A model generated the notes under the pieces. It was not told the origin of the DNA, did no database searches, and saw nothing but the letters and a program-made list of their open reading frames with translations. A DNA stretch of 63,289 bases, filler included, from Octopus bimaculoides (lineage: Eukaryota), in assembly GCF_001194135.2 (NCBI RefSeq). It is 6 parts of 6 records of this genome, joined end to end, with 100 filler letters (N's around TTAATTAATTAA, not from the genome) between each part and the next. Parts side by side here need not be neighbours in the genome. Positions count along the whole stretch, not along the records: positions 18,195 to 25,921 come from NC_068985.1; positions 26,022 to 38,395 come from NC_068982.1; 4 more parts are not named here. One strand, 5' to 3'. Made by a program: the position numbers and the translations under genes. Below, piece after piece: positions 25,651-32,417 of the stretch. How positions within the stretch are numbered: position 1 is the first letter of the stretch; every line of letters starts with the position of its first letter.

Positions 25651-25921
25651 CTGATGAGAACCCAATAAGGTTCGAAAATCTATTAAGGTTGTTCATCATT
25701 TTTTTTTATCTGCGGAGAAATGGCTAAAATTTGCCATGTTTATAATTATACCATATTTTACATGTATATTATATCATACTTTCATACTGTGTGGACTAAG
25801 ATACCCGTTGACAAGCCGCTGGTATTTGTAGAGTATTAAACATTTTCGGTATGCAAATTAAAAACTCTTTCATTGAGTAACTGGTGCATTTGTTGAGTAT
25901 ATAAAGAGTTTGGATGCTTGT
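25651..25921 (+). mobile_element. HHR-containing short repeat family R1, copy 1 (retrozyme-like)
   Basis: CTGATGA-GAACC caataa GGTTC-GAAA-ATCTAT-TA; body homologous to 32108-32417 in permuted order. Confidence 0.7.
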
Positions 25922-26021
25922 NNNNNNNNNNNNNNNNNNNNNNNNNNNNNNNNNNNNNNNNNNNNTTAATTAATTAANNNNNNNNNNNNNNNNNNNNNNN
26001 NNNNNNNNNNNNNNNNNNNNN
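25922..26021. other. Artificial scaffold join
   Basis: 44N+TTAATTAATTAA+44N. Confidence 0.95.
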
Positions 26022-26409
26022 TTCAATTGAATTTCATGGAGAGAAACAAGATAAATAATAGGGGGCAACTAAAGCGCGAAGGTATTATGAGATGTTTGAG
26101 GCCGTAAATAAATAAAAAATCTCTATCTTATCTGCATCTTGGAGATTTCGTCGTAGTATGTCAGCGAGATAATTTAGAATGGGTTTCTCATTTATATATA
26201 GCCAGAACCTGAAGACCTTAAGGAAAAACTACGAAAGAGAGAGAGAGGATGGAGGGGTAGACAGAGGCATGGCGGGAGAAAAGATCATCATCATCATCAT
26301 CATATATATATAGAAAGAGAGAGAGAGAGAGAGAGGGGGGACCAGTCAAGCAGCACATCACGCTGTAATTCTTGGGCACACACACACACGTATACACACA
26401 TACATTATC

Positions 26410-27645
26410 CTCATCATCGTTTAACGTTCATTTTCCATGCTGTCATGGGTTGGACGATTTGACAGGAGCTGGCTAGGCAAAAGACTGCACCAGGTTTCAA
26501 TGTCTGTTTTGGCATGGTTTTTACAACTAGACGCCCTTCCAAATACCAACCACTTTATAGTGTGAACTGGATACTTTTTATATGGTACCAGCACTGGCAG
26601 GGTCACCAAGTAACTTGCAAGACTAAGATCCTTTGAGAGAGGAGGGGACATTGGAGGAGGTGATCTTGTGCCAGATGATAAAAGGTTAAAGTGTAAGAGA
26701 GAGACAGAAATGGGTGTCTAGCTCTAGAGGAGATACATGGTTACTCATTTAGAGAGAGAGAGAGAGAGAGAAGTGATCAACATTGAGATCAGAAACAGGT
26801 GTGTTACTATAGAGGAGATACATGGTTAATCAGTCAGAGGGAGAGAGCAAAAGTAAGAGAGAGAGTAGAAGATAGTGAGAGTGCAAGAGAGAGCAGGAGA
26901 GAGATGGTGATGAAGTGCCAAGGCATACTCACTAGGAGATCAGAATATGAATGAGATGGTAGAATAGAGCAAAGTACAAATAGATGGTGGCAAAGTGTCA
27001 GGGCGTACCCTCAAGGTACGGGGGGGGGGGGTCAGAATATAAACGGTAGAGTATTGCCAAAGGTGTATGAGGAAGGAGTAGAGACTTCACATGAATACAA
27101 AGAGTGTGAGTGTGGGGAATGCTGTGACTGGTGAAACCTGGGTATATAGAGGTAGTGGGGGAAAACAGGATAGCAGTGATACAGGGATCAGAGCAAGGAG
27201 GACAGGACTGGGAAGCAAGAGATAAGCATAAGCATAATGCATGAAAAGCAGAAATGTGAGGAAAAAAAAGAGATGTAGTTTGGTTTGTTGGGGTAAGGTG
27301 TGGAGAAAGTATTTTTGTAGTTACATGTGAACAGAACCCACAGAAATTCTAGAACTCAGTTTCGCTATAGTGGGTGGGTTTTTTCAAGAATCTCATATTG
27401 TCAGGCATCTTGGTCCCTTGTCATCTCCTCTATGAGGCCCAGCATCCAAAGATCGGTCTTCACCACTTCATCCCATGTCTTCCTCTTCCACAGGAGCCAC
27501 CTACTTATAATGATCTGCACTTCTTTATACAGCTGTCTTCGTTCATATGCATCACATGTCCAAACCAATGTAGTCAGCTCTCTTGCATGCTGCATCTGAT
27601 TCCTCTTATGCCCAACGTTTTTCTCAGTACATTTGCATATATACG
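26410..27645 (-). mobile_element. RTE LINE 3' fragment with long 3' UTR and (GAT)n tail
   Basis: KTWDEVVKTDL..LGL.EEMT.D; tail CCATGACAGCATGGAAAATGAACGTTAAACGATGATG. Confidence 0.8.
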
Positions 27646-27826
27646 TATACTCTCTCTTTTAGTTGTTTCAGTCATTTGATTGTGGCCATGCTGGAGCACC
27701 GCCTTTAGTCGACCAGGACTTATTCTTTGTAAGCCTAGTACTTATTCTATCGGTCTCTTTTGCCAAACCACTAAGTTACGGGGACATAAACACACCAGCA
27801 TCAGTTGTCAAGTGATGCTGGGGGGA

Positions 27827-30140: not shown

Positions 30141-31654
30141 ATATTCTCAATCCTTCAAAAACAAACAGCTCAATGATTGGACATATTTTCACAGAAGTTT
30201 GTCAACAAATGACACAATATTCTGTATCAATGGTCAATTGTTTACAATCAACATGTTTCTACCCACACACTCACTTGCACATGCACACACACAACAGGCT
30301 TCTTCTATACAGTTTCTGTCCACAAATTTTAACCAAAAGGCATCAGTTGACCAAAAGCTTCAATAGAAAACACCAAGATGCTTTGCAGTGTGATGAAATT
30401 CAAGGACCATGGCATTACAGAGTGAACTTGCTAAATGCATACCTATGCTTGTATATATAAATGGTTGGCAACAGGAAGAGCATCTAACTGTAGAGGCCAT
30501 ATCAAAGCAGATATTGGACTTCAGCACAGCCCTCTGCTTTGTCATTTCCTGTTAAACCAGTCAACTCGTGCTAGCATAGCAAAAGGGACATTAAATGATT
30601 ATGGTGATGATGATGATGATAATGAGGAACATGATGATATATATACTTTAATAAAACAGATGTCTATGTTTGTGTTTGTGAATGAGTGTCTCTATGTGTG
30701 ATAAACAATTCTTTCTACTATAAGCACAAGACCTGAAATTTTAGAAGAGAGGTTTAGTCAATTACATTGATCCCAGTAAACAACTGGTATTTATTTTATT
30801 GAGACCATAAGAGAGAAAGGCAAAGTCAACCCTGGCAGAATTTGAACTCAGAACAAAATGCCACTATGCATTTTGCCTGACATGCAAATGATTCTGGTAG
30901 GAAAGTTACCCATCTATTAAAACAATCATTCTAAGATAAATCAACAAGTGTCGTTCAAACTGCTAGAAATAGCAATCACATCTCCTTCAAATAACATCTC
31001 CATCATAAGGAAGACAGATATAGTCCTAGATACACAATGCCACAAAACAAAAACAAAATAAAAAGATGAGATAGACATAGGGATAATGCTTTTCATCACA
31101 AATCTGCTCAAACAGTGTTAACTTAGAATAAACTGCTCTCAAATAACTGCCCTCAGAAATGACCATTTTATCTATGTGGGAATGGAACCTAGATCATCAT
31201 CATCATCATCATCATCATGCTAATGCCTACTTTTCCATGTTTGCACGGGTCAAACAAGAGCACATTGGGGAAAAGGTTTTTTATGATCAGAAGCCTTTCC
31301 TGTTGCATTGTCCCATCTTCCATCACTAGATGTCCTTTTTAATTACTGATATGACATAATATTCACATGTGTTTGTATATTGTTTTTATTGTCCTCTTAG
31401 TTAAAAAATAAACAGGTAAATTGACAAAATACAATGTCTGCAAGTTGATGAGTACCACATATTCCCCTCATTTTCTTATTGCTATATATAAATATATATA
31501 TATATATATANNNNNNNNNNNNNNNNNNNNNNNNNNNNNNNNNNNNNNNNNNNNNNNNNNNNNNNNNNNNNNNNNNNNNNNNNNNNNNNNNNNNNNNNNN
31601 NNNNNNNNNNNNNNNNNNNNNNNNNNNNNNNNNNNNNNNNNNNNNNNNNNNNNN

Positions 31655-31955
31655 CTTATTCTATCTTTTGCCAAACCACTAAGTTACGGGGATGTAAACA
31701 CACCAGCATCAGTTGTGAAGCGATGTTGTGGGGACAAACGCAGACACAAACACACACACACACACACACATATATATACATACACATATATACGACAGGC
31801 TTCTTTCAGTTTCCGTCTACCAAATCCACTCACAAGGCTTTGGTCGGCTTGAGGCTATAGTAGAAGACACTTGTCCAAGGTGCCACGCAGTGGGACTGAA
31901 CCTGGAACCATGGGGTTGGTAAGCAAGCTACTTACAACACAGCCACTCCTGCACC
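31655..31955 (-). mobile_element. SINE family B
   Basis: Matches other copies. Confidence 0.8.
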
Positions 31956-32107
31956 TATAACATATCTATATATCTTAGGAGGTTAAAAATTGAGTGACCA
32001 TTTGTTTCTCACCAATAAAGCACTTAGCAATATCAATGCCTTGTCAGACTTGAATGTAGGTGCCCTAATGCTTTAGGGTGTGCTTCTTTTTCAGATATAT
32101 GAACTAC

Positions 32108-32417
32108 TGACCATATGTTATGTATTATATCATACCTTGATACAGTGTGGACTAAAATCCCCACTGACAGGCCGCTGGTATTTATAAAGTGTGAAACACT
32201 TTTGGTATGCAAATTAGGGACTCTTTCATAGAGTAACTGCCTCACTTGTTGAGTATATAAACAGTTTGGCAGCTTGTTTCTCTGGGGACTGACAAAATGA
32301 TGTGGATGCCTGTAATGAAAACCCAGTAAGGTTCGAAAATCGATTAAGGTTGTTCAACATTTTTTTCAGTTCATGGAGAAATAGCTAAAATTTGCCCTGT
32401 TTATAATTATACCATAT
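32108..32417 (+). mobile_element. HHR-containing repeat family R1, copy 2 (circularly permuted, ~302-bp unit)
   Basis: Starts and ends at ACCATAT; HHR at 32308-32350 GCCT-GTAATGA-AAACC..GGTTC-GAAA-ATCGAT-TA-AGGT. Confidence 0.7.

What the first reader, a model, noticed from the sequence alone, without database searches (positions are those of the whole stretch)
25651..32417. Circularly permuted hammerhead-bearing ~302-nt repeat (retrozyme-like family R1)
Seen: copy 1 (25651-25921) runs HHR > segment a > segment b. Copy 2 (32108-32417) runs segment b > HHR > segment a and begins and ends at ACCATAT. No ORF. Known: non-autonomous retrozymes are 170-400-nt HHR-delimited units producing circular RNAs, and Penelope pLTRs can also appear permuted. 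Inference: reverse transcription from a circular or multimeric RNA. I am not aware of this family being described in octopus but cannot verify that.
Basis: partly seen in the sequence, partly recalled or inferred. Interest (0 to 1): 0.8.

Follow-up and report, generated by a model that had tools for sequence, protein, structure and literature searches.

The report
Penelope-type hammerhead ribozyme repeat, decayed copies
These are two worn copies of a many-copy, non-coding ~305-base repeat whose family carries an intact hammerhead-ribozyme motif; it is likely a passenger of Penelope-like jumping genes, a kind already known in animals, and the swapped order of its parts is likely a cut-short head-to-tail insertion rather than proof of a circular RNA.

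Summary
The two copies are real: 82% and 87% identical in two blocks, in swapped order. Laying public runs shows a large family (2,412 DNA contigs). Its majority letters restore a full type I hammerhead with a palindromic helix III at the tip of a 150-nt hairpin. Both window copies have damaged ribozymes. The 'permutation' is weaker than it looks. Copy 1 ends at an assembly gap and starts against another repeat's tail. The a>b join is common in genomic DNA. Many family contigs leave the element at copy 2's right end into (TA)n, about 70 nt past the cut site. That is the published Penelope pattern: a fixed internal 3' end, head-to-tail partial tandems and 5' truncation. Two RNA runs gave few reads, both orientations, no listed junction reads and no end pile-ups. 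A circle is therefore not shown, though libraries of this type could miss one. No coding Penelope abuts either copy. Verdict: a new member of a known kind (animal non-LTR retrozyme / Penelope end-repeat derivative). I found no paper describing it in cephalopods.

The parts
25651..25921 (+). Copy 1: hammerhead + segment a (25651-25756), joined head-to-tail to segment b of a next unit (25750-25921) and cut off by an assembly gap
25651..25694 (+). Copy 1 hammerhead. Core CTGATGA and GAAA intact; 5-bp stem II with a 6-nt loop. Stem I 5' strand absent and helix III palindrome broken at 25681. Predicted cut site 25685|25686; likely inactive
25922..26021 (.). Assembly gap (two runs of 44 N around a 12-nt spacer) that ends copy 1; any second ribozyme would lie in it
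   Evidence: no significant copy-like sequence after the gap (76, 96 and 23 of 300 shuffles reach the score)
25520..25650 (+). Unrelated abundant repeat whose CA-like tail abuts copy 1's start (flank, not part of the element)
   Evidence: 5 other window copies at 73-78%
32110..32417 (+). Copy 2: one full unit (b > TATA-like > hammerhead > a) with 7-11 nt of the previous unit's end in front; may run on to about 32421
32117..32245 (+). Segment b, non-coding, not significantly structured (z -1.45)
32246..32417 (+). 3' module of about 170 nt: predicted long hairpin (pairs 32256-32405) with the ribozyme at its tip, and TATATAAA at 32254-32261. 46 family contigs share it but differ upstream of 32246
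   Evidence: z -3.82, 0 of 200 shuffles; table 7
32304..32355 (+). Copy 2 hammerhead, with locus changes at 32312, 32314 and 32319 (family majority restores each, 91-94% of depth). Palindromic helix III 32338-32345; predicted cut site 32346|32347; likely dead at this locus
   Evidence: table 3
32061..32110 (+). End of a separate repeat on copy 2's left. One contig of it also carries the ACCATAT stretch, so the shared heptamer may be junction microhomology
   Evidence: tables 2, 7, 8 (piece 9 covers 32061-32116)
32421..32543 (+). Separate SINE-like repeat beginning right after copy 2 (flank; 'SINE-like' is my recalled label)
   Evidence: table 7; (2 other window copies)

Best explanation
Both stretches are decayed copies of a many-copy, non-coding ~305-nt repeat whose family carries a complete type I hammerhead motif, likely a non-autonomous passenger of Penelope-like retroelements (an animal non-LTR-retrozyme-type element), and the swapped order likely comes from more-than-one-unit insertions cut short at the 5' end rather than from random entry on a circle. 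SHOWN: the family is large; its majority sequence has an intact core, 5-bp stem II, palindromic helix III and a stem I; the a>b join is present in many genomic contigs; many contigs leave into (TA)n at the end of segment a. INFERRED: (1) a head-to-tail source is transcribed as a linear multimer, perhaps from the TATA-like box upstream of the ribozyme; (2) the weak palindromic helix III lets two ribozymes cut as a dimer; (3) a Penelope RT-endonuclease supplied in trans nicks AT-rich DNA and starts reverse transcription at a fixed internal site about 70 nt 3' of the cut site (about 100 nt from stem II); (4) copying stops at variable points in the preceding unit. That leaves 'one unit + 7-11 nt' (copy 2) or 'ribozyme + a + next unit' (copy 1). 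Both window copies have since lost ribozyme-critical bases.
For: FAMILY: 2,412 contigs of DNA run X1 laid, 1,921 of them under 95% alike. Summed depth is about 100,000 against 43-68 for the 8 listed X1 pieces; the tool warns this is no copy number, so I read it only as roughly 10^3 copies. RIBOZYME: 32312 G>C 9828/10804, 32314 A>G 9828/10804, 32319 A>G 23244/24731; loose-end consensus before 32315 supplies the stem I 5' strand. JOINS: 10 of the 12 listed table-5c rows are go-back joins from segment a to 32119-32127, all in DNA run X1 (3 rows not shown). 3' END: the largest listed X1 loose-end class (69 contigs) lies at 32417, consensus GTTACA then (TA)n, and 24 contigs read T at 32419. The cut site 32346|32347 is not among the 6 listed X1 loose-end places. 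LITERATURE: Penelope partial tandems, 5' truncation and microsatellite bias (PMC8557442, passages). In anole Poseidon, RT starts 111-118 nt past an ORF start at stem II, cuts AT-rich DNA and does not need ribozyme cleavage (PMC11167929, parts 1-2). Animal retrozymes derive from Penelope end repeats (bioRxiv 10.64898/2026.07.22.740005, parts 1-3). PARTNER CLASS: a Penelope-type RT/endonuclease fragment lies in the same window at 15.3-16.6 kb. RNA: per unit of DNA depth, R1 bins get 0.26-0.78 RNA reads per 1000, against 3.3-7.5 for two neighbouring repeats and 0.6-1.4 for the SINE-like flank.
Against: No listed contig spans two ribozymes, so true tandem dimers are inferred, not seen (table 8; 2,496 pieces not shown). 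A pile-up of loose ends at 32417 is partly forced, because copy 2 departs from the family there. The (TA)n consensus has only 0.65 agreement and could mix in short a>b continuations. The lower depth over the start of b may reflect local divergence rather than 5' truncation. No partner element sharing the end repeat was identified. The rod-like fold (circular fold z -3.37, 0 of 100 shuffles) is also what published retrozyme circles show. One RNA run leans about 3:1 towards one orientation at the ribozyme (59.3 vs 21.3), the other barely (40.1 vs 31.3). Family letters support the hairpin only in part: of 8 scored pairs, 1 is compensatory, 2 improved, 2 kept as wobble and 3 broken (only 40 of 194 variant rows were shown).
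Confidence: 0.55

Rival explanations
1. A true circular-RNA retrozyme: dimers self-cleave to a ~305-nt monomer, a host ligase circularises it, and an RT copies round the circle to give permuted, more-than-unit cDNAs.
For: Unit size, low GC, type I ribozyme with a 2-bp palindromic helix III, and a highly self-paired fold (68% paired, z -3.37) match described animal retrozymes. The family keeps the core at over 90% of depth. Copy 2 is one unit plus a short redundancy. The a>b join exists in DNA.
Against: In RNA runs X21 and X22 (322 and 304 reads from about 6% of each run), 92% of laid reads run on into unlike sequence (this figure includes flank-repeat reads). No RNA join appears among the 15 + 12 listed joint rows (17 + 3 not shown), and no place has many molecule ends (table 6). 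3' exits seem to cluster at one site. The libraries are cDNA RNA-Seq of unknown selection and could deplete circles, so this is weak.
Confidence: 0.25
2. The copies are solo or truncated end repeats (pseudo-LTRs) of a coding Penelope element, not an independent non-autonomous family.
For: The TATA-like box > ribozyme > ATG layout resembles Penelope end repeats (partly recalled; in PMC11167929 the ORF starts at stem II). 46 contigs share only the 3' 170 nt and differ upstream of 32246. Most Penelope ribozymes occur as dispersed single motifs from truncated elements (PMC4209133, parts 1-2).
Against: tblastn of 70 Penelope-type proteins (all of one clade) found nothing under E 0.05 between 24 and 34 kb. 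The 39-codon frame has no relative. The joins go from a back to b, closing a ~305-nt unit with no room for an ORF. The alternative upstream consensus still shares a short motif with the end of b, so it may be a sister subfamily with an indel.
Confidence: 0.15
3. A tandem DNA satellite spread by DNA-level copying, in which the ribozyme is an inert relic.
For: The a>b join is in DNA. RNA representation is low. Both window copies are dead.
Against: The core letters are kept at over 90% of family depth while the locus has drifted. The copies are dispersed between unrelated repeats and exit into (TA)n, as retroposed elements do. TRF finds no array at either copy.
Confidence: 0.05

Closest known systems
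Metazoan non-LTR retrozymes (Cervera & de la Pena 2020, PMC7229834; part 2, section 14 and passages read, supplement unreadable), e.g. the 350-390-bp Mytilus and 330/350-nt axolotl repeats
   Same: Non-coding unit of 170-400 nt, GC under 50%, one type I hammerhead per unit, short palindromic helix III predicted to need a dimer (as in axolotl), highly self-paired fold, many copies.
   Different: No multimeric array, self-cleavage or abundant circular RNA is shown here. The copies seen are dispersed and decayed, and the 3' end appears fixed away from the cut site.
Retrozymes as non-autonomous derivatives of Penelope-like elements (Li, Clavereau & Pollet, bioRxiv 10.64898/2026.07.22.740005; parts 1-3 of 5 read)
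   Same: Proposes exactly this origin. It reports dispersed monomers as well as dimers and multimers, and 8 of 9 tested dimers did not cleave.
   Different: Its 35 genomes are 31 vertebrates, 3 insects and 1 coral, with no mollusc. The parent Penelope of this family is not identified.
Pseudo-LTRs of EN+ Penelope-like elements with hammerheads (PMC4209133, parts 1-2; PMC8557442, passages; PMC11167929, parts 1-2)
   Same: Head-to-tail partial tandems, 5' truncation, AT-rich or microsatellite targets, insertion 3' end about 110 nt past stem II (about 100 nt here), small palindromic helix III.
   Different: No RT-endonuclease ORF is attached. The ribozyme has a 5-bp stem II with no bulged base after A9 and a long extended stem I, unlike the typical minimal motif (stem II 7-8 bp, stem I 4-5 bp).

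Membership tests
Type I hammerhead ribozyme | Core CUGANGA...GAAA...UH with stems I-III | tested here: met
   Met by the family's majority letters (91-94% at the three restored positions). Not met by either window copy.
Type I hammerhead ribozyme | Scores as an Rfam hammerhead family | tested here: not met
   0 of 145 and 0 of 4 matches; only the damaged window copies were scanned.
Type I hammerhead ribozyme | Self-cleaves | not testable with these tools
   No pile-up of RNA ends at 32346|32347 in two cDNA runs (table 6); a weak proxy.
Metazoan non-LTR retrozyme | Non-coding unit of 170-400 nt, GC under 50%, one type I ribozyme | tested here: met
   Period 301 nt at copy 2, GC 0.36 and 0.32, no ORF with relatives.
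Metazoan non-LTR retrozyme | Occurs as tandem repeats with two or more ribozymes | tested here: inconclusive
   a>b joins in DNA (10 of 12 listed rows), but no listed piece spans two ribozymes; copy 1 is cut by a gap.
Metazoan non-LTR retrozyme | Highly self-paired predicted RNA | tested here: met
   Copy 2 circular fold z -3.37 and 3' module z -3.82. Incomplete copy 1 is not structured (z +0.53). Family support for individual pairs is mixed.
Metazoan non-LTR retrozyme | Expressed as abundant monomeric linear and circular RNA | tested here: inconclusive
   Low read counts in both orientations and no listed junction reads in 2 RNA runs of unknown selection.
Autonomous Penelope-like element | Single ORF with RT and GIY-YIG endonuclease between end repeats | tested here: not met
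   Nothing under E 0.05 near either copy with 70 proteins of one clade; sequence hidden in the gap after copy 1 cannot be read.
Penelope-mobilised insertion | Partial tandem, 5' truncation, fixed internal 3' end or tail, AT-rich target | tested here: inconclusive
   69 contigs exit at 32417 into a (TA)n consensus (0.65 agreement) and a>b joins are present, but end positions could not be counted genome-wide (no genome held).
Penelope-mobilised insertion | End repeat shared with a coding partner in the same genome | not testable with these tools
   No genome held; collection scans empty.

The most novel reading that the evidence does not exclude
Its roughly thousand genomic copies would record a Penelope reverse transcriptase starting at one fixed site about 70 nt past the ribozyme cut, on a circular or multimeric template. 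That would tie the retrozyme circle directly to the Penelope internal-initiation mechanism and make the open question of how animal retrozymes are mobilised testable by counting copy ends.
Probability: 0.18. Interest if true: 0.55.

Novelty: new member of a known kind. Interest (0 to 1): 0.3.

Why it matters
Modestly. Hammerhead-bearing ~300-nt repeats are known from corals, a mussel, many other invertebrates and amphibians, and a 2026 preprint already derives them from Penelope end repeats. The value here is one more, apparently undescribed family with enough copies to test whether insertion ends follow the Penelope internal start site or the ribozyme cut site, which remains unsettled for animal retrozymes. 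The two copies in this window are dead relics and carry little information on their own.

Tried and rejected
No genome is held for this window, so copies could not be mapped genome-wide. Exact-pattern scans found nothing in metagenome contigs or viral contigs. The run search listed no RNA holder; this is no evidence either way. Rfam gave no hammerhead hit. The 39-codon frame across the a>b join of copy 1 has no relative and was rejected as a coding remnant for lack of support. The 10-11-nt likeness just after the gap is at chance level. The ORF fragment at 36735-37088 (-) gave no homologue among longer proteins and no meaningful Pfam hit. ARAGORN found no tRNA gene. LITERATURE: searches 'retrozyme + octopus' (3 papers), 'hammerhead ribozyme + Penelope + octopus' (2), 'hammerhead + ribozyme + octopus' (8) and 'hammerhead ribozyme + cephalopod' (4) showed no description of this family; most hits were seen as listings only. 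The O. vulgaris repeat annotation PMC13282606 (passages) has 0 occurrences of ribozyme, hammerhead or retrozyme but lists recently active Penelope families. The giant squid genome paper PMC6962438 (passages) counts 235 'hammerhead 1' loci without describing the host repeats. The supplement of PMC7229834 could not be read, bioRxiv supplements are closed, and Repbase/Dfam were not available. The family may therefore already sit in a repeat library or a supplementary figure. Earlier-findings look-ups by sequence and by place were empty.
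Full report
Observation. The two stretches are homologous in two blocks whose order is swapped. 25654-25756 matches 32315-32417 (90/103, E 7e-32) and 25750-25921 matches 32110-32277 (141/172, E 6e-45); there is no third copy in the window. Copy 2 starts and ends with ACCATAT and has a period of 301 nt. Copy 1, however, is not a whole unit. It runs into N at 25922, and its first base follows the CA-like tail of an abundant unrelated repeat that has five other copies in the window. Copy 2 is also boxed in by other repeats, at 32061-32110 on the left and from about 32421 on the right. 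Two boundaries set by a gap and by neighbours cannot by themselves show circular permutation.

Ribozyme. Copy 1 has the core CTGATGA, a perfect 5-bp stem II and GAAA. A descriptor finds 3 such sites in the window, against 0.14 expected in simulated windows. Copy 1 lacks the 5' strand of stem I and has a broken helix III palindrome. Copy 2 keeps stem I and the palindrome but has changed two core bases and the first base of stem II. Rfam does not score either copy. The family does carry the full motif. In DNA run X1 the majority letters restore 32312, 32314 and 32319 at 91-94% of depth, the two RNA runs agree, and the loose-end consensus before 32315 supplies the stem I strand. The motif is type I with a 2-bp palindromic helix III. 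By the published rule this would cut efficiently only as a dimer (PMC4209133; axolotl data in PMC7229834). Cleavage is not shown.

Structure. The 3' 172 nt of copy 2 fold into one long hairpin with the ribozyme at its tip (z -3.82, 0 of 200 shuffles), while segment b does not fold significantly (z -1.45). The whole unit folded as a circle gives z -3.37 (0 of 100). The family letters support the hairpin only in part. Of 8 scored pairs, 1 is compensatory (32286/32372), 2 are improved, 2 are kept as wobbles and 3 are broken, and only 40 of 194 variant rows were shown. The module's left edge, 32246, is also where 46 contigs leave the alignment for a different upstream sequence.

Family anatomy. 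2,412 contigs of one DNA run lie on the 521-nt stretch, 1,921 of them under 95% alike. Summed depth reaches about 100,000 against 43-68 for the listed single pieces. The tool warns that this is no copy number, so I take it only as order 10^3. Ten of the 12 listed rows of table 5c are joins from segment a back to the start of b (32119-32127), all in DNA, so copy 1's a>b join is ordinary for the family. The largest listed DNA loose-end class (69 contigs) leaves at 32417 with a consensus of GTTACA then (TA)n (agreement 0.65), and 24 contigs read TA straight after ACCATAT. The ribozyme cut site is not among the six listed DNA loose-end places (407 rows over all runs not shown). This points to a recurrent 3' end about 70 nt past the cut site and about 100 nt past the start of stem II. 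Two caveats apply: copy 2 departs from the family at that point anyway, and no listed piece spans two ribozymes.

RNA. The two raw RNA runs of the same species label gave 322 and 304 reads from about 6% of each run, in both orientations; 92% run on into unlike sequence, a figure that includes the flanking repeats. No RNA join appears in the listed joint rows (20 rows not shown), and no place has many ends. Relative to DNA depth the element gets 0.26-0.78 reads per 1000, below two neighbouring repeats (3.3-7.5) and about level with the SINE-like flank (0.6-1.4). This looks like bystander transcription. One run leans about 3:1 to one orientation at the ribozyme. cDNA libraries of unknown selection may lose circles, and no reads began at the cut site for an active anole Penelope either (PMC11167929). 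The circle is therefore neither shown nor excluded.

Coding partner. A Penelope-type fragment lies at about 15.3-16.6 kb. It has 70 relatives, some carrying both RVT_1 and GIY-YIG domains, so the class is present in this genome. None of these proteins matches near either copy under E 0.05, and the 39-codon frame across copy 1's join has no relative. The parent element is not identified. No genome was held and the collection scans were empty.

Mechanism. The simplest reading is a non-autonomous Penelope-dependent element with the unit b > TATA-like box > ribozyme > a. Published Penelope insertions are partial tandems with 5' truncation and a bias for microsatellites (PMC8557442). In the one element studied in vitro, the enzyme nicks AT-rich DNA, starts at an internal site 111-118 nt past an ORF start that sits at stem II, and does not need ribozyme cleavage (PMC11167929). 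Applied here by inference, a fixed start at the end of a and a variable stop in the preceding unit give copy 2 (one unit plus 7-11 nt) and copy 1 (ribozyme plus a, then a next unit lost in the gap). The left ACCATAT may be junction microhomology, since one contig of the neighbouring repeat carries it too (piece 9). A circular template would give the same joins, so it remains a live rival (0.25), as do fragments of a coding element's end repeat (0.15) and a DNA satellite (0.05).

Comparison and novelty. It works like a metazoan non-LTR retrozyme or a Penelope end-repeat derivative. Size, GC, ribozyme type and fold meet the description in PMC7229834 and PMC7761336 (passages). Tandem arrays and circular RNA are inconclusive, so I file it as retrozyme-type rather than as a proven retrozyme. 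A 2026 preprint already argues that such repeats are non-autonomous Penelope derivatives. Four literature searches showed no description in octopus or cephalopods, but supplements and repeat libraries were not visible, and the species was not tested here. Verdict: a real feature, a new member of a known kind, interest 0.3.

Noticed in passing
window 57095-57170 and 57377-57452 (+): A second hammerhead family, of the minimal type (5-bp stem I, 6-bp stem II, almost no helix III). Just upstream lies a degenerate motif sharing stem II and GAAA with the studied repeat (20 matches with a 4-nt gap), then a (TAA)n run and a head that looks tRNA/SINE-like from memory (ARAGORN finds no tRNA). It may be a SINE-like element with a Penelope-type ribozyme end. 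The 282-nt duplication spans an N gap and may be an assembly artefact.
   Followed up: partly
window 15227-16600 (+): Broken Penelope-type ORF (end of RT plus an endonuclease-like region); 70 relatives, best tblastn E 5e-51. No likeness to the studied repeat nearby.
   Followed up: partly
window 36400-37088 (-): A 117-aa frame that looks from memory like the C-terminus of a Penelope-type endonuclease (no homologue found), followed by a degenerate hammerhead-like core at 36491.
   Followed up: partly
window 1849-1880 (+): Hammerhead-like core spacing (CTGATGA...GAAA) without a stem II good enough for the descriptor.
   Followed up: no
window 25720-25839 (+): A 39-codon frame runs unbroken across copy 1's a>b join, and the family majority restores its ATG at 32383 (88%). 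No relative was found; probably chance.
   Followed up: yes
window 31992-32110: Two further small repeats left of copy 2 (31992-32028 and 32061-32110), joined on opposite strands in 2 DNA contigs and richer in RNA reads than the studied repeat; possibly a remnant with inverted ends.
   Followed up: no
window 28881-29900 (+): Decayed non-LTR reverse transcriptase (RVT_1, E 5e-07) between the two copies, unrelated to them.
   Followed up: no
window 61547-61691: A near-perfect long inverted repeat built of 21-nt units; it gives below-threshold miRNA hits in Rfam.
   Followed up: no
window 25966-25977: A 12-nt TTAA-type spacer between two 44-N runs, probably an assembler's gap marker; the true gap size is unknown.
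   Followed up: no
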